DNA from: a virus
Lineage: Duplodnaviria; Heunggongvirae; Uroviricota; Caudoviricetes
Virus record (IMG/VR): IMGVR_UViG_2859827302_000009
Strand: one strand, 5' to 3'
DNA: 6,599 bases
Of the stretch, positions 1 through 6,599 are shown one piece after another. A model generated the notes under the pieces. The model saw nothing but the letters and a program-made list of their open reading frames with translations. It searched no databases and was not told the DNA's origin. The stretch's first letter is position 1; each line of letters opens with the position of its first letter. The position numbers and the translations under genes were made by a program.

Positions 1-921
1 TCATGCTTTCCCCCAATCTTTACGTGGATCAAAAGACGACTGGGCGTCTGCCAGTTGCTGCCACAGCGCGGCAGTGTTTTCATCCGGTTTCGGCGGCATC
101 ACGATTTTCAGTACCGCATACAGATCGCCGGTCTGTTTTTTGCTCACCAGACCTTTGCCTTTAACGCGCAATCGTTGCCCGGCCTGGCTGCCTGGCGGGA
201 TAGTCAGCAAAATGCTTTCTTTCAGTGTTGGAACGGTGACTTTAGCACCCAGCGCCGCTTCCCACGGGCTAACCGGCACCACAATTTCCAGATCCTGGCC
301 GACAATATCGAACAGCGGATGTGGCGCAATATGAATCACCAGCCACAAATCGCCATTTGGACCACCGTTTTCGCCCGGCGTCCCCTGGCCTTTCAGACGG
401 ATGCGTTGACCATTGCCGACGCCCGCCGGGATCTTCACATTCAGCGTTTTCGGGATTTCCTGTTCGATCATGCCAAAGGCGTTATAAACCGGCAGGTTAT
501 AGCTGATGGTACGCTTATGCTCAGTCAGCGTTTCTTCGAGGAATACCGCCACTTCGATTTCAATATCGTGGCCGCGTGCGGCGGGGCGTTGACGGCTCTG
601 GCGGGCATGCTGACCGAAAATTGACGAGAAGATATCGTCAAAATCTTCGGCATTAAAACTCTGACCGTCGCCATGATGGAACTGACGGTTAAATTGCGGA
701 TCGTTGCGATGTTGCCACATCTGATCATACTCAGCGCGACGTTGTTCATCACTTAACACTTCCCAGGCTTCAGCGACCTCTTTGAAGCGGGCTTCGGCAT
801 CCGGTTCTTTGCTGACATCAGGATGGTATTTACGGGCCAGTCGACGATAGGCGGTCTTGATTGTCTTGAGATCGTCCGTCGGTTTCACGCCCATGATGGC
901 GTAATAATCCTTTAATTCCAT
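1..921 (-). CDS. cbpA: Curved DNA-binding protein CbpA (DnaJ-like co-chaperone), complete 306 aa; stop at 1..3, ATG at 919..921
   Basis: Full-length ORF whose translation ([53 protein letters not shown]...) matches my recollection of E. coli CbpA, with a J-domain HPD motif near the N-terminus. GC-rich, typical of core E. coli coding sequence. Confidence 0.95.
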
Positions 922-1472: not shown

Positions 1473-1487
1473 GGTAATGACTCCAAC

Positions 1488-1865
1488 TTATTGATAGTGT
1501 TTTATGTTCAGATAATGCCCGATGACCTTGTCATGCAGCTCCACCGATTTTGAGAACGACAGCGACTTCCGTCCCAGCCGTGCCAGGTGCTGCCTCAGAT
1601 TCAGGTTATGCCGCTCAATTCGCTGCGTATATCGCTTGCTGATTACGTGCAGCTTTCCCTTCAGGCGGGATTCATACAGTGGCCAGCCATCCGTCATCCA
1701 TATCACCACGTCAAAGGGTGACAGCAAGCTCATAAGACGCCCCAGCGTCGCCATAGTGCGTTCACCGAATACGTGCGCAACAACCGTCTTCCGGAGCCTG
1801 TCATACGCGTAAAACAGCCAGCGCTGGCGCGATTTAGCCCCGACGTATCCCCACTGTTCGTCCAT
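1488..1865 (-). CDS. insB: IS1 InsB frame (expressed as the InsAB' fusion by -1 frameshift); ORF shown from first Met
   Basis: Translation [44 protein letters not shown]... matches IS1 InsB. The frame continues upstream to the frameshift site. Confidence 0.85.
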
Positions 1866-1909
1866 TTCCGCGCAGACGATGACGTCACTGCCCGGCTGTA
1901 TGCGCGAGG

Positions 1910-2185
1910 TTACCGACTGCGGCCTGAGTTTTTTAAGTGACGTAAAATCGTGTTGAGGCTAACGCCCATAATGCGTGCAGTTGCCCGGCATCCAACGCCA
2001 TTCATGGCCATATCAATAATTTTCTGGTGCGTACCGGGTTGAGAAGCGGTGTAAGTGAACTGCAGTTGCCATGTTTTACGGCAGTGAGAGCAGAGATAGC
2101 GCTGATGTCCGGCAGTGCTTTTGCCGTTACGCACCACCCCGTCAGTAGCTGAACAGGAGGGACAGCTGATAGAAACAGAAGCCAC
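1910..2185 (-). CDS. insA: IS1 InsA (transposition inhibitor / N-terminal part of the InsAB' transposase), 91 aa, GTG start
   Basis: Translation [39 protein letters not shown]... is the canonical IS1 InsA with its zinc-finger CxxC...CxxC motif. The A6C -1 frameshift heptamer (reverse complement of gtttttt) lies at 1928..1934. Confidence 0.9.
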
Positions 2186-2240
2186 TGGAGCACCTCAAAA
2201 ACACCATCATACACTAAATCAGTAAGTTGGCAGCATCACC

Positions 2241-2649: not shown

Positions 2650-2760
2650 ATGAACAAAACGCTAATCGCCGCAGCTGTGGCAGGGATAGTTTTACTCGCT
2701 TCAAACGCTCAGGCACAAACCGTACCGGAAGGCTATCAGCTACAGCAAGTGCTCATGATG
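2650..2760 (+). pseudogene. agp: agp (periplasmic glucose-1-phosphatase) 5' fragment: codons 1..37 only, interrupted by IS911
   Basis: [37 protein letters not shown] matches my recollection of the Agp signal peptide and N-terminus. A Shine-Dalgarno-like aggaa precedes the ATG at 2650. The frame then runs into the IS911 terminal repeat and stops 23 codons later at 2832. The junction is ambiguous within 2759..2762 because of tga microhomology. Confidence 0.8.
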
Positions 2761-2766
2761 AAGTGG

Positions 2767-3935
<1,169 letters not shown>

Positions 3936-4007
3936 TGGAGCACCTGTGTTGTTCTGAGGTGAGCATATCACCTCTGTTCAGGTGGCCAAATTCAGTGTGC
4001 CACTTCA

Positions 4008-4184
4008 AAGCAGCCAGATTTCTGGTGCGGTTAATAAATGAGGCTGAGCTGGGTTCAGCTTGTTCCGCAGAATCTGCACATTCATGCCTGCACGTTCTGC
4101 CAGTTGCACCAGATTGTGGCGCAGTGCAAATGCACGACAGGCTTCATCAAAATATGGATGTTTGGAAACTTGGTAATCAAACAT
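4008..4184 (-). pseudogene. Phage CII-like regulatory protein (186 CII family), N-terminal 59 codons; truncated by IS911, whose terminal TGA supplies the stop
   Basis: [59 protein letters not shown] resembles the N-terminus of coliphage 186 CII as I recall it. The likely true start is ATG 4184 (the ORF track begins at TTG 4190). An agagg Shine-Dalgarno lies upstream. Confidence 0.6.
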
Positions 4185-4216
4185 GGTCAATGCCTCTGAT
4201 GTATTTCAGAATCGAA

Positions 4217-4438
4217 CTAATTAAGGTTTAGATTGCATTCTGAAAGCGCATCAACGGTCATTGCTGCTATGTTGATCATCACTTTTTCGCGTTTTTTATC
4301 TTTGCGCAGACGGTGACGGATAAGGCGTCCATCAGCCAACATGTCATTGATGGTATCGATGGATAGCCCTGTCAGCTCGCTATAGCGTTCAATAGTCACA
4401 TGAGGCGTGGTAAGAGTGATTGAAATGTTAGGTCTCAT
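4217..4438 (-). CDS. Small HTH protein in the Apl/Cox position of a P2/186-type switch (putative excisionase / lytic-promoter regulator), 73 aa
   Basis: It is the first gene of the transcript divergent from the cI-like gene and sits directly upstream of the CII-like gene. The motif [27 protein letters not shown] resembles the Cox-type HTH. ATG at 4438 is preceded by a GAGGA-like Shine-Dalgarno. Confidence 0.5.
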
Positions 4439-4563
4439 GATGCAACATTCCTCGTTTAATGATGATTAATCAGGACGAATACGGATCGTTTGTATTTTGT
4501 GAACACCATAAGCATACGATCGCACAGTGAAATCATCAAGATAAAAGTTCACTTGGAGTGACC
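4439..4563. promoter_or_regulatory. Divergent promoter/operator region of the immunity switch (between the Apl/Cox-like and CI-like genes)
   Basis: A 125-bp AT-rich gap between divergently oriented genes. Contains a perfect 10-bp palindrome TGATTAATCA (4463..4472), an ACGATCG-type palindromic core near 4516..4522, and GTGAA(C/A) motifs at 4499..4504 and 4527..4532 with an inverted copy at 4547..4553. Confidence 0.4.
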
Positions 4564-5133
4564 ATGAATTTGGAGAAAGGCGGACGAGGCGCCATAGAGC
4601 GCATGGTAGAAGCTTATGGATTCAAGACTCGACAGGCGTTGTGCGATCATTTAGGAATCTCTAAAAGTACACTCGCCACACGCTACATGCGTGACTCATT
4701 CCCAGCAGAATGGGTAATCCAGTGCGCCCTTGAAACGGGCACCTCGCTTAATTGGCTCACAACCGGACATGGTTCAAAGCAAACTTCAGGTAATACAAAT
4801 ACTATGGAAGTTGCTAAATATGTATTATCTGATGGTGCCTTGCGTGAAGACGGTTTTTATATTTTTGATAAGGGATTTCTACCCTCTACGTTTAAAAAAC
4901 CTTTTGTCATCACAGATAACAATTCTGAATTTATTTGTGATAAAGAATTTGATGACATACGTGATGGTAAATGGGTAATAAGTATTGATGGCGAAGTAAC
5001 GATCCGTGACATTACTCGTTTACCCGGTGGAAGAATCTTCGTCGAGGGTGGAAACAGAGCCTTCGACTGTAAGATAGAAGACATTGAAATAATTGGTAAA
5101 ATTATAAGTTTAACAGTTAAATATGTTAGATGA
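4564..5133 (+). CDS. Phage CI-type repressor (coliphage 186 CI family: N-terminal CI HTH domain plus C-terminal oligomerisation domain), 189 aa from ATG 4564
   Basis: ggag Shine-Dalgarno 5 nt before ATG 4564 (the ORF track starts at GTG 4558). N-terminal IERMVEAYGFKTRQALCDHLGISKSTLATRYMR...CALETGTSLNWLTTG and C-terminal ITRLPGGRIFVEGGNRAFDCKIEDIEIIG resemble 186 CI as I remember it. Length and position (divergent from apl/cII, same strand as int) fit. Confidence 0.7.
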   Translation: MNLEKGGRGAIERMVEAYGFKTRQALCDHLGISKSTLATRYMRDSFPAEWVIQCALETGTSLNWLTTGHGSKQTSGNTNTMEVAKYVLSDGALREDGFYIFDKGFLPSTFKKPFVITDNNSEFICDKEFDDIRDGKWVISIDGEVTIRDITRLPGGRIFVEGGNRAFDCKIEDIEIIGKIISLTVKYVR

Positions 5134-5148
5134 TACCGGGAGGAAACT

Positions 5149-5352
5149 ATGCTTGGTAAAGTATTTTTTGTGGTTTTATCATGCTCTTTATCATGCTCTT
5201 TGTTATTAAGCCCACTAACTACCTATGCTAAAAATTATCCTTGTTCTGGGAAAAAGGGAGGTGTCTCTCACTGTACCTCCGATGGAAAATTTGTTTGCAA
5301 TGATGGAACTATTAGTAAATCCAAAAAAATCTGTACTAAAAACTCACGATAA
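5149..5352 (+). CDS. Small secreted cysteine-rich basic peptide, 67 aa precursor (predicted Sec signal peptide, mature form about 41 aa with 4 Cys); function unknown
   Basis: Strong Shine-Dalgarno ggagg 7 to 8 nt before ATG 5149, which lies 15 bp after the cI-like stop. The N-terminus [27 protein letters not shown] has the charged, hydrophobic and A-x-A-like cleavage parts of a signal peptide. Mature part is [41 protein letters not shown] do not recognise a homolog. Confidence 0.5.
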
Positions 5353-5528
5353 CTTTTGCTTTTATATCTGCGTCTAAAATAAAAATGAGCCGCAGGTTAA
5401 CCGCAAAAGTTACATGCTCACATAGCAAAAAGAATAGCCAACTTCATTATGGCTTCAGTGAGATGTATGGTCGGGTGATGCTGCCAACTTACTGATTTAG
5501 TGTATGATGGTGTTTTTGAGGTGCTCCA

Positions 5529-5804
5529 GTGGCTTCTGTTTCTATCAGCTGTCCCTCCTGTTCAGCTACTGACGGGGTGGTGCGTAACGGCAAAAGCACT
5601 GCCGGACATCAGCGCTATCTCTGCTCTCACTGCCGTAAAACATGGCAACTGCAGTTCACTTACACCGCTTCTCAACCCGGTACGCACCAGAAAATTATTG
5701 ATATGGCCATGAATGGCGTTGGATGCCGGGCAACTGCACGCATTATGGGCGTTAGCCTCAACACGATTTTACGTCACTTAAAAAACTCAGGCCGCAGTCG
5801 GTAA
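5529..5804 (+). CDS. insA: IS1 InsA, 91 aa, GTG start
   Basis: Protein identical to the copy 1 InsA. The A6C frameshift heptamer A AAA AAC lies at 5780..5786. Confidence 0.9.
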
Positions 5805-5848
5805 CCTCGCGCATACAGCCGGGCAGTGACGTCATCGTCTGCGCGGAA

Positions 5849-6226
5849 ATGGACGAACAGTGGGGATACGTCGGGGCTAAATCGCGCCAGCGCTGGCTGT
5901 TTTACGCGTATGACAGGCTCCGGAAGACGGTTGTTGCGCACGTATTCGGTGAACGCACTATGGCGACGCTGGGGCGTCTTATGAGCTTGCTGTCACCCTT
6001 TGACGTGGTGATATGGATGACGGATGGCTGGCCACTGTATGAATCCCGCCTGAAGGGAAAGCTGCACGTAATCAGCAAGCGATATACGCAGCGAATTGAG
6101 CGGCATAACCTGAATCTGAGGCAGCACCTGGCACGGCTGGGACGGAAGTCGCTGTCGTTCTCAAAATCGGTGGAGCTGCATGACAAAGTCATCGGGCATT
6201 ATCTGAACATAAAACACTATCAATAA
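5849..6226 (+). CDS. insB: IS1 InsB frame (InsAB' transposase by -1 frameshift); ORF shown from first Met
   Basis: Protein identical to the copy 1 InsB ORF. Confidence 0.85.
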
Positions 6227-6241
6227 GTTGGAGTCATTACC

Positions 6242-6599
6242 GAAAAACAGAAGCATCCCTATCAGTAAAGAGCTTTACGAAGAGATCATGGCGCTTGATG
6301 GGTTCAATTTCTTCACAGACTGCTATTTTCAATTTTTATCCGTGATGGAAAAAACGTCTATCGTGCTCCCTCGCGGTCAACTCACACACGTTCTGCGCCA
6401 TACGTTTGCGGCGCACTTCATGATGTCGGGTGGAAACATTCTGGCCTTACAAAAAATTCTCGGACACCACGATATAAAAATGACTATGCGTTACGCACAT
6501 CTGGCACCGGATCATCTGGAAACGGCGCTCCGTTTCAATCCTCTGGCAACGCTGCCAAGTGGCGACAAAGTGGCGGCAGCGGTTGGCATTACCCCGTAA
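6242..6599 (+). pseudogene. int: Tyrosine recombinase / phage integrase (P2 Int family), C-terminal fragment of about 118 codons; 5' two-thirds missing at the IS1 junction
   Basis: LTHVLRHTFAAHFMMSGGNILALQKILGHHDIKMTMRYAHLAPDHLETALRFNPL matches the catalytic C-terminus of P2-type integrases (conserved Arg/His box and the Tyr in RYAH). The frame is open from the IS1 end and stops with TAA at 6597..6599. No integrase N-terminus is present upstream of IS1. Confidence 0.8.

What the first reader, a model, noticed from the sequence alone, without database searches (positions are those of the whole stretch)
4564..5133. Apparently intact orphan CI repressor retained in a decayed prophage
Everything around it is truncated, but the cI-like gene has a good Shine-Dalgarno, full length and no disruptions. 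Retention of a repressor alone is a known route to phage immunity without prophage cost, so this gene may be under selection as a defense determinant against homoimmune 186-like phages.
Basis: inference. Interest (0 to 1): 0.55.

Follow-up and report, generated by a model that had tools for sequence, protein, structure and literature searches.

The report
Intact phage repressor in prophage remnant
This is an ordinary, already annotated phage-186-type CI immunity repressor gene that survives intact inside a young, IS-shredded P2/186-like prophage remnant of Shigella; it probably still works, but its survival gives no evidence that it is being selected.

Summary
Bases 4564-5133 encode an undisrupted 189-aa protein with both 186-CI domains at full length. 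It aligns end to end with the 186 CI crystal structure. The identical protein is already annotated as 'phage repressor protein CI [Shigella dysenteriae]'.

It is not a lone gene. The 1.47-kb block 4008-5473 keeps a whole switch module: cII cut at codon 61 by IS911, an intact Cox/Apl-like gene, the 125-bp promoter region, cI, and an intact small YdcA-family gene. IS1 replaced 762 bp of int.

The parent is a P2/186-like prophage inserted between ybjL and rcdA (the 'Rybb' element of E. coli B, W and Crooks). About 10% of complete E. coli genomes carry the same immunity region, some as apparently complete prophages. Immunity against such phages is therefore plausible by homology.

Selection cannot be shown. 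Ten remnant-bearing genomes differ by only ~1 SNP/kb. Among them cI has one synonymous and one stop-to-stop change, and the neighbouring int pseudogene has changed at about the same rate. The one lineage-specific residue (E168D) occurs in 29% of homologues.

Verdict: known kind, low interest. A variable patch in the lytic promoter and operator region was noticed in passing.

The parts
2759..4007 (-). IS911 copy. Its left end cuts cII, and its transposase genes point the same way as transcription from the predicted lytic promoter pR.
   Evidence: Boundaries come from blastn against sister loci and E. coli. The end sequence TGAAGTGG... is read on the minus strand from 4007. The element name is from my own knowledge of the OrfA sequence.
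4008..4190 (-). cII' : the first 61 codons of the 169-aa 186-type CII activator. The stop codon is supplied by the IS911 end (ORF 4005-4190).
   Evidence: Pfam PF06892 Phage_CP76 E=1.5e-17, profile 2-53 of 146. PHROG CII-like. Full-length 169-aa copies occur in E. coli.
4217..4438 (-). Intact 73-aa Cox/Apl-like excisionase and lytic-side repressor gene, the first gene of the former lytic operon.
   Evidence: PHROG 575 'Cox-like excisionase and repressor' E=6e-31, full length. No differences from E. coli ECCWS199. The identical protein is listed in 49,648 blocks of the collection.
4439..4563 (.). 125-bp switch region between the divergent cox/apl-like and cI genes. It holds the predicted face-to-face promoters and presumably the CI operators.
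   Evidence: Same size and layout as the 129-bp cI-apl region of phage 186. Operators were not identified with confidence.
4420..4448 (+). Predicted lysogenic promoter pL that would drive cI: -35 TTGAAA (4420-4425), 17-nt spacer, -10 CAACAT (4443-4448).
   Evidence: The hexamers lie at exactly the same offsets from the apl start codon as the annotated 186 pL (-10 is 5-10 nt outside, -35 is 13-18 nt inside). This is an inference. It scores 8 of 12 to consensus and was not reported by the promoter scan.
4511..4539 (-). Predicted lytic promoter pR: -35 TTGATG (4539-4534), 17-nt spacer, -10 TATGCT (4516-4511). The common E. coli form is TTGACG / TATGTT.
   Evidence: My own reading of the sequence. 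It lies 10 bp further from the cI ATG than the 186 pR. It was not reported by the scan at its threshold. All three intergenic differences from the E. coli consensus fall in these hexamers.
4547..4563 (.). Palindrome GTTCAC-N5-GTGACC over the cI ribosome-binding site. It resembles the 186 B-type CI sites (ATTCAC-N5-GTGAAT) and is a candidate CI site.
   Evidence: It is the only match in the window and in four related prophage loci. The same scan recovers pB, FL and FR in phage 186. A match at this stringency turned up by chance in 50 of 200 shuffles, so it is only a lead.
4564..5133 (+). cI: intact 189-aa phage-186-type immunity repressor (N-terminal HTH domain plus C-terminal oligomerisation domain).
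5149..5352 (+). Intact 67-aa YdcA-family gene, 15 bp after cI and probably co-transcribed with it. It reads as a small signal-peptide-like, cysteine-containing protein. It carries a 12-bp tandem duplication at 5175-5198.
   Evidence: PF27300 YdcA. NCBIfam NF007463 at 103.8 bits against a cut-off of 93. PHROG 6000, function unknown. Duplication seen.
5474..6241 (+). IS1 copy that replaced 762 bp, namely the ydcA-int spacer and the N-terminal part of int. An inverted twin lies at 1473-2240.
   Evidence: blastn boundaries.
6242..6599 (+). int' : the last 358 bp of the tyrosine integrase gene, 100% identical to E. coli ECCWS199.
   Evidence: Pfam PF00589..

Best explanation
The gene is the immunity repressor of a P2/186-like (Peduoviridae) prophage that integrated between ybjL and rcdA. 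This is the 'Rybb' P2-like element known from E. coli B, W and Crooks. In a Shigella lineage the prophage was broken up recently. int acquired a nonsense mutation (W208*). IS911 landed in cII. In this genome IS911- and IS1-mediated rearrangements then carried away everything else. What remains is cII'-cox/apl-promoters-cI-ydcA-IS1-int'. By homology with phage 186, CI would be made from the weak promoter pL. It would assemble through its C-terminal domain into higher oligomers (a 14-mer wheel in 186). It would bind operators over the convergent lytic promoter pR and shut it off. Shutting pR off relieves transcriptional interference on pL, so CI sustains its own expression. CI acts in trans, so a cell making it should also repress pR of any incoming phage with the same operators, which is classical superinfection immunity. 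Shown here: gene identity, intactness, remnant architecture, its youth, and the abundance of prophages with the same immunity region. Inferred: promoters, operators, expression and immunity. The gene's survival needs no special explanation, because too little time has passed for a 570-bp gene to be hit.
For: Identity and intactness. The exact protein is already named CI in Shigella dysenteriae and 'MULTISPECIES Shigella' records, on 145 contigs. The window is identical to CP026828.1 positions covered by L011. Shared ancestry of the decay: all ten loci carry the same IS911 cut in cII, and the four sister loci checked (L003, L005, L008, L009) carry int W208*. Native site and relatives: and PMC3032704 for the 'Rybb' P2-like elements. 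186-like layout: divergent genes 125 bp apart against 129 bp in 186, with predicted pL hexamers at the same offsets from the apl ATG as in 186. 186 mechanism: PMC3675496 and the annotation of NC_001317. Youth and lack of power: flank divergence 0.94-1.39 SNP/kb, cI with one synonymous and one stop-to-stop change, int pseudogene with four polymorphic sites including at least two non-synonymous. The only lineage-specific residue, E168D, has D in 33 of 115 homologues. Possible targets exist: 495-593 of 5426 E. coli genomes, with a complete-looking prophage in strain 2c3.
Against: No expression data are available. The promoter scan reported nothing in the intergenic region at its threshold. The operators could not be identified. 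Residue 168 is E in all 12 other sequences of the first alignment, including 186 CI, so a subtle effect of E168D is not excluded. The remnant lineage carries changes in the predicted pR hexamers whose effect on the switch is unknown. No isolated phage in the phage collection has a CI more than 56% identical, so homoimmune phages are known only as prophages.
Confidence: 0.7

Rival explanations
1. One reading: the repressor is actively maintained by selection as a cost-free defence determinant against homoimmune P2/186-like phages.
For: The gene is intact and homoimmune prophages are common. Independently decayed copies in E. coli B (cII and A truncated) and in L030 (shortened cII joined to a tail-fibre gene) also keep cI at 189 aa. 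Four separate IS events lie within about 1.5 kb in the ten sister loci, and none hits cox/apl, the promoters or cI. Variation in the family's intergenic region is concentrated in the pR and operator core, as expected if repressor-operator interaction is under pressure. From my own recollection, P2-type phages plate on Shigella dysenteriae.
Against: The test has no statistical power. There is one synonymous and no non-synonymous change in a lineage with ~1 SNP/kb, and the int pseudogene evolves at a similar rate. The small neighbours cox/apl and ydcA are equally intact, so intactness is not specific to cI. The IS-free target is only about 0.9 kb. No defence-system model matches.
Confidence: 0.2
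2. The repressor is kept because it silences the remnant's own lytic promoter. Unrepressed pR would transcribe cox/apl, the cII fragment and then, in the sense direction, the IS911 transposase genes. This would resemble the way other cryptic-prophage repressors are needed to silence harmful neighbours (RacR and DicA, from my own recollection).
For: Geometry: predicted pR (minus strand, about 4504 downwards) reads through 4438-4008 straight into the IS911 left end at 4007 and orfA/orfB on the same strand. Only a weak 5-bp terminator-like hairpin intervenes. Two different substitutions in the predicted pR -35 (TTGACG to TTGATG or TTGGCG) are present in 9 of 10 remnant loci. Each is in only 1 E. 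coli genome as an exact 51-mer, against 281 for the common form. That pattern fits pressure to weaken pR.
Against: The same two -35 variants also occur in complete-looking E. coli prophages, so they may be ordinary polymorphisms. In several sister loci IS911 is itself broken by IS1. There is no evidence that Apl, the CII fragment or extra IS911 transposase is harmful. The promoters are predictions only.
Confidence: 0.07
3. The gene is intact but silent or functionally dead, a pseudogene in waiting. Possible causes are loss of distal sites needed to activate pL (FL/FR-type looping in 186), loss of the CII-dependent establishment promoter, or the E168D change.
For: cII is truncated, so any pE-type establishment promoter cannot be activated. 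No FL/FR-like sites were found. Predicted pL is weak (3 of 6 in the -10). E168 is otherwise invariant among close relatives and in 186.
Against: In 186, maintenance expression from pL does not need CII (annotation; PMC3675496). D at position 168 is common in the wider family. The region from 4008 to 5473 is 98.8% identical to an E. coli prophage copy with an intact early region (ECCWS199), and its intergenic region differs from that copy at two bases.
Confidence: 0.1

Closest known systems
Phage 186 CI immunity repressor (NC_001317 cI; PDB 2FJR, 2FKD)
   Same: Same two Pfam domains at full length. The alignment covers residues 10-183. It has the same position in a cII-apl-(pR/pL)-cI-int module with divergent genes about 125 bp apart. 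The family also has a LexA-box plus DinI-like (Tum-type) SOS module, as 186 does.
   Different: Only 31% identical overall, so it is heteroimmune. The 186 operator sequences are absent, and only one B-type-like palindrome was found. A YdcA-family gene sits between cI and int. The attachment site is ybjL/rcdA rather than tRNA-Ile (ileY).
'Rybb' P2-like prophages of E. coli B, W and Crooks, and the same element in about 10% of complete E. coli genomes
   Same: Same insertion site. cI plus the intergenic region is 95-99.6% identical. The cox/apl-like protein is identical. The gene order is the same (PMC3032704).
   Different: The window copy is reduced to under 2 kb by IS911 and IS1. It has E168D in CI, three base changes in the predicted pR hexamers, and a 12-bp duplication in ydcA.
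Repressors retained in cryptic prophages (RacR of Rac, DicA of Qin, lambda-type CI remnants); my own recollection, not tested here
   Same: A repressor outlives the lytic genes of its prophage. It can keep residual promoters silent and can act in trans on related phages.
   Different: For those cases, function or essentiality has been shown experimentally. Here nothing beyond sequence is available, and the remnant is too young to argue for retention.
P2 C repressor and Cox switch
   Same: Face-to-face promoter logic, and a Cox-like protein on the lytic side (PHROG 575).
   Different: P2 C is a small unrelated repressor. This gene is the 186 type, with an added oligomerisation domain (PMC3448106, for the two switch types).

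Membership tests
Phage 186-type CI repressor (Pfam PF07022 + PF16452) | N-terminal CI-type helix-turn-helix domain | tested here: met
   PF07022 E=2.7e-33, 114.5 bits against a cut-off of 22, profile 1-64 of 65.
Phage 186-type CI repressor (Pfam PF07022 + PF16452) | C-terminal CI oligomerisation domain, complete | tested here: met
   PF16452 E=2.7e-29, 101.8 bits against a cut-off of 27, profile 2-100 of 101. Aligns to the 2FKD/2FJR C-terminal domain.
Phage 186-type CI repressor (Pfam PF07022 + PF16452) | Not a LexA-like self-cleaving repressor; induction through a Tum-type antirepressor | tested here: inconclusive
   Peptidase_S24 reaches only 16.8 bits, below its 23.3 cut-off. Relatives carry a LexA box (CTGTGAATATAAACAG) followed by a 62-aa ORF and a DinI-like ORF that is 41% identical to the Tum C-terminus. 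This module is not in the window or within 10 kb of it.
Phage 186-type CI repressor (Pfam PF07022 + PF16452) | Assembly into a wheel of seven dimers | not testable with these tools
   Homology to the domain that forms the wheel in 2FKD is the only evidence (PMC3675496).
186-type lysis-lysogeny switch | cI and an apl/cox-like gene placed divergently, followed by cII on the lytic side and int on the lysogenic side | tested here: met
   Compared with the 186 annotation.
186-type lysis-lysogeny switch | Face-to-face pR and pL promoters in the intergenic region | tested here: inconclusive
   Hexamers are readable at 186-like positions. They score 8 of 12 to consensus, and the scan tool reported none there.
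186-type lysis-lysogeny switch | Three CI operators over pR spaced two helical turns apart, plus distal FL/FR sites about 300 bp away | tested here: inconclusive
   One palindrome at 4547-4563 and an imperfect 38-bp dyad at 4484-4521 were found. No distal sites were found, although the same scan finds them in 186.
Orphan repressor acting as an immunity (defence) determinant | Repressor intact while lytic functions are gone | tested here: met
   The cox/apl-like and ydcA genes also survive.
Orphan repressor acting as an immunity (defence) determinant | Phages with matching operators exist | tested here: met
   The 51-bp pR region is present in 495 E. coli genomes, 281 of them exact to the common form. 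A complete-looking prophage is in strain 2c3. No isolated phage is known.
Orphan repressor acting as an immunity (defence) determinant | Repressor is expressed and lowers plating of homoimmune phage | not testable with these tools
   Needs RNA or protein data and plaque assays.
Orphan repressor acting as an immunity (defence) determinant | Signature of selection for retention in the remnant lineage | tested here: inconclusive
   No non-synonymous and one synonymous change among ten loci, one non-synonymous change (E168D) on the stem, and a lineage divergence of ~1 SNP/kb. There is no power.

The most novel reading that the evidence does not exclude
The surviving cox/apl-promoter-cI block is a domesticated immunity module in Shigella. 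Repressor-operator interaction is an active battleground in this very common prophage family. Two observations hint at this: a multi-allelic patch in the pR and operator core (4524-4527, 4535-4536), and two different pR -35 changes in 9 of 10 remnant loci that are almost absent from E. coli. If true, orphan repressors would be shaping operator evolution in circulating P2/186-like phages.
Probability: 0.12. Interest if true: 0.45.

Novelty: already known. Interest (0 to 1): 0.15.

Why it matters
It matters little as it stands. The gene is a textbook-type repressor that annotation pipelines already name correctly, and the idea that a leftover repressor can give immunity is established. The useful outcome is negative: in IS-ridden, recently diverged genomes such as Shigella, an intact gene inside a wrecked prophage is the default expectation and should not be read as evidence of selection. 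If the immunity function were shown, it would add one more defence determinant against a prophage family carried by about a tenth of complete E. coli genomes.

Tried and rejected
1. Operator hunt. Inverted and direct repeat search, a 186-B-type palindrome scan of the window and four prophage loci, a 10-mer shared between 4481 and 4998 (weak), and a dyad scan gave one candidate site and no convincing operator set.

2. Promoter scan. Nothing was reported in the intergenic region. The promoters I give are positional predictions by analogy with 186.

3. Truncated CI clusters (P0127, 115 aa; P0134) looked like naturally truncated cI genes. They are genes cut by contig ends, so they say nothing about loss of cI.

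5. E168D as an inactivating change is rejected, because D occurs in 33 of 115 homologues.

6. PADLOC found no match for CI, Cox/Apl-like or YdcA-like proteins. NCBIfam found no match for CI, Cox/Apl-like or the cII fragment.

7. Rfam and tRNA scans of the window found nothing.

8. Literature look-up by accession only found the record in a data list. A 2026 preprint that mentions the BL21 P2-like cryptic prophage could not be opened.

9. I considered whether ydcA is the selected cargo and cI merely its promoter-proximal passenger. This is weakened because an IS interrupts ydcA in two sister loci.

Full report
**What is in the window**

- The 6599-base window is identical to part of CP026828.1, assembly GCA_002950015.1 (locus L011).
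- The proteins it encodes are named in public records as Shigella dysenteriae or 'MULTISPECIES Shigella'.
- Reading left to right:
  - cbpA, 1-921, minus strand
  - an AT-rich stretch
  - IS1, 1473-2240
  - the first codons of agp
  - IS911, 2759-4007
  - a prophage block, 4008-5473
  - a second, inverted IS1, 5474-6241
  - the last 358 bp of a phage integrase gene, 6242-6599
- The names yccE, agp and IS911 come from my own recognition of the sequences. The rest comes from tools.

**The observation**

- The ORF at 4564-5133 starts with ATG, five bases after a GGAG. It runs 189 codons to a TGA stop.
- It matches both halves of the phage-186 CI repressor at essentially full profile length:
  - PF07022, E=2.7e-33
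  - PF16452, E=2.7e-29
- Residues 10-183 align to residues 10-184 of the 186 CI crystal structure 2FJR (E=8e-31).
- PHROGs calls it a transcriptional repressor.
- The exact protein is in the public collection on 145 contigs, already named 'phage repressor protein CI'.
- The gene is real, is at the stated coordinates and is undisrupted.

**Its surroundings**

- On the opposite strand, 125 bp away, is an intact 73-aa gene of the 'Cox-like excisionase and repressor' family (PHROG 575, E=6e-31).
- Next comes the first 61 codons of a 186-type cII gene, which ends where IS911 begins.
- Fifteen bases after cI is an intact 67-aa YdcA-family gene.
- IS1 has then replaced 762 bp, including the N-terminal part of int.
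What survives is a whole switch module: cox/apl, promoter region, cI and a small passenger gene.

**Where it came from**

- Ten genomes carrying the identical CI protein share the same IS911 cut in cII. All four sister loci I checked also share a nonsense mutation in int, W208*. The decay therefore began once, in a common ancestor.
- In eight of the other nine loci (all but L002 and L006) the remnant still adjoins DNA-methylase, replication-gene and DinI-like remains on the left. In all nine it adjoins rcdA on the right.
- In the window genome the DNA left of IS911 is agp instead. An IS911-mediated rearrangement has therefore removed the rest.
- The parent element is a P2/186-like prophage inserted between ybjL and rcdA.
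  - E. coli ECCWS199 has a 98.8% identical copy there, decayed in its late genes.
  - E. coli B has a 95% identical copy, decayed differently and carrying a retron.
  - Strain 2c3 has a complete-looking 34-kb prophage with every P2-type structural gene and no pseudogene flags.
- The E. coli W genome paper calls the P2-like elements at this site 'Rybb' in strains B, Crooks and W (PMC3032704).
- The immunity region is common:
  - 593 of 5426 complete E. coli genomes cover at least 80% of the 1.5-kb block.
  - 530 cover the intergenic region plus cI.
  - 495 carry the 51-bp pR segment.
- No isolated phage in the phage collection has a CI more than 56% identical.

**Is the protein likely to work?**

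- Compared with close E. coli copies, the only change specific to the Shigella protein is E168D.
- That residue is E in all 12 other sequences of a first alignment, including 186 CI.
- In a wider set of 115 homologues it is E in 79 and D in 33. The query never departs from a column that is at least 90% conserved.
- I see no inactivating change.

**How it most likely works (inference from phage 186)**

- In 186, CI is transcribed from the weak promoter pL. pL faces the strong lytic promoter pR.
- CI wheels of seven dimers bind three operators over pR and repress it. This relieves transcriptional interference on pL (PMC3675496; record annotation).
- The window has the same geometry.
  - Hexamers TTGAAA and CAACAT sit at exactly the offsets from the apl-like start codon that pL occupies in 186.
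  - TTGATG and TATGCT on the other strand are a plausible pR.
- These are predictions. They score 8 of 12 to consensus, and the scan tool reported nothing there.
- I could not define the operators.
  - One palindrome resembling the 186 B-type sites lies over the cI ribosome-binding site (4547-4563).
  - There is an imperfect 38-bp dyad at 4484-4521.
  - No distal FL/FR-like sites turned up, although the same scan recovers them in 186.
- If CI is made, it should repress pR of any incoming phage with the same operators.
- The family also has a 186-like SOS module: a LexA box, a 62-aa ORF and a DinI-like ORF 41% identical to the Tum C-terminus. It is present in sister loci but not within 10 kb of cI in the window genome.

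**Is it under selection?**

- The ten remnant-bearing genomes differ by 0.94-1.39 SNP/kb over 7-8.5 kb of flanking chromosomal DNA.
- Within the remnant, cI shows one synonymous change (one locus) and a TAA-to-TGA stop change (window only). It shows no non-synonymous change.
- The int pseudogene shows four polymorphic sites in 1053 bp, at least two of them non-synonymous. The rate per base is about the same.
- With fewer than one expected difference per pairwise comparison in cI, nothing can be concluded.
- Family-wide, cI has dN/dS of about 0.10 (0.035 in the DNA-binding domain, 0.098 in the C-terminal domain). The cox/apl-like gene has 0.015. This mainly reflects copies in prophages with an intact early region.
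- Independent decayed copies (E. coli B; L030) also keep cI. That is suggestive but anecdotal.
- Apparent truncated CI clusters in the protein database turned out to be contig-end artefacts.

**A side observation**

- All three intergenic differences between the remnant lineage and the common E. coli sequence fall in the predicted pR hexamers:
  - 4512, in the -10
  - 4535 or 4536, in the -35
- The -35 is TTGACG in E. coli (281 genomes with the exact 51-mer). It is TTGATG in the window and one sister locus, and TTGGCG in seven others. Each variant is exact in only one E. coli genome.
- Both variants do occur in complete-looking prophages.
- In 26 copies of the region there are 14 intergenic haplotypes.
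  - Nine of the ten variable positions lie between 4487 and 4536; the tenth is 4554.
  - A multi-allelic patch sits at 4524-4527.
  - None of the 48 bases next to the apl-like gene varies.
- The density in the pR core (9 of 53) is close to that of third codon positions in the adjacent cI N-terminal domain (10 of 80). It may therefore be neutral variation beside a constrained stretch.
- The clustering of multi-base alleles could instead reflect pressure on repressor-operator binding. I leave this open.

**Rivals**

- Active selection for immunity is possible but undemonstrated.
- A second idea is that CI is useful because it silences pR. Otherwise pR would read through cox/apl and the cII stub directly into the IS911 transposase genes on the same strand.
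  - The pR -35 changes would fit this.
  - There is no evidence of harm, though, and IS911 is itself broken in several sister loci.
- A third idea is that the gene is silent or subtly defective. The sequence gives little support to this.

**Comparison with the known, and verdict**

- This is a member of the 186-type CI family by every sequence criterion tested. It sits in a remnant of a named, widespread P2-like prophage and is already annotated as such.
- The concept of a leftover repressor conferring immunity is established. It is mentioned generally in the review PMC6379469, and specific cryptic-prophage repressor cases are from my own recollection.
- Nothing here is new in kind.
- The finding is accurate as an observation and reasonable as a hypothesis, but its evidential step ('intact, therefore selected') does not hold for so young a remnant.
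- Interest is low.

Noticed in passing
window 4487-4536 (predicted pR core), especially 4524-4527 and 4535-4536: Across 26 copies of this immunity region there are 14 intergenic haplotypes. Nine of the ten variable positions lie in this 50-bp stretch (the tenth is 4554). There is a multi-allelic 4-bp patch, and the 48 bp next to the apl-like gene are invariant. The remnant lineage carries two different changes in the predicted pR -35 (TTGACG to TTGATG or TTGGCG) that are each exact in only 1 of about 495 E. coli copies. This could be operator or promoter tuning, or just neutral variation beside a constrained segment.
   Followed up: partly
window 5175-5198 (ydcA-like gene): There is a perfect 12-bp tandem duplication (TTTATCATGCTC x2) that adds four residues to the signal-peptide-like N-terminus. 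It is present in nine of the ten remnant loci (all but L008) and absent from the E. coli copies L001 and L013. Two sister loci (L002, L006) instead have an IS inserted near window position 5268.
   Followed up: partly
window 1473-2240, 2759-4007, 5474-6241: Two IS1 copies in inverted orientation (one mismatch in 760 aligned bases) bracket the region. IS911 joins the start of agp directly to the cII stub. The remnant has therefore been moved next to cbpA/agp by IS-mediated rearrangement, while its right end still leads to rcdA.
   Followed up: partly
L003, L005, L008, L009 int gene (for example L003 10978-12030): All four sister loci checked share a nonsense mutation W208* (TGG to TAG) beside the conserved GAR motif of the integrase. 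The prophage was therefore probably locked in before the IS1 deletion seen in the window.
   Followed up: yes
L014 14272-14860 and sister loci L003, L005, L008, L010: The prophage family carries a 186-like SOS module. It consists of a LexA-box-like CTGTGAATATAAACAG, a 62-aa ORF and a DinI-like ORF 41% identical to the C-terminus of the 186 Tum antirepressor. It is not within 10 kb of cI in the window genome.
   Followed up: partly
L013 14667-16715; L014 8981-14127; L015 10787-13830; L001 10550-14284: In relatives, the slot between the portal gene and the DinI-like gene holds different cargo in each genome. Examples are a retron St85-family RT plus effector in E. coli B, SIR2 plus an ATP-binding protein and HipA/HIRAN in 2c3, TIR and restriction-endonuclease genes in Z1323CEC0015, and an AIPR protein in ECCWS199. 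It looks like a defence-gene hotspot of P2-like prophages.
   Followed up: no
L026 1446-2085 (E. coli E2348/69): In this more distant relative (89.6% identity) a second, longer gene annotated as 'phage repressor protein CI' follows cI directly, where ydcA sits elsewhere. Longer (290-326 aa) CI homologues also appear in the protein search.
   Followed up: no
window 4205-4213 and 4236-4244: There is a perfect 9-bp inverted repeat, TTTCAGAAT ... ATTCTGAAA, 22 bp apart. It spans the stop of the cox/apl-like gene and the spacer before cII, roughly where 186 has its FR site and the CII-activated promoter. Its function is unknown.
   Followed up: no
window 4484-4487 and 4518-4521: Two GATC (Dam) sites flank the predicted pR -10 and start region, and the parent prophage encodes its own DNA adenine methylase. 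One E. coli copy (L015) has lost the first site.
   Followed up: no
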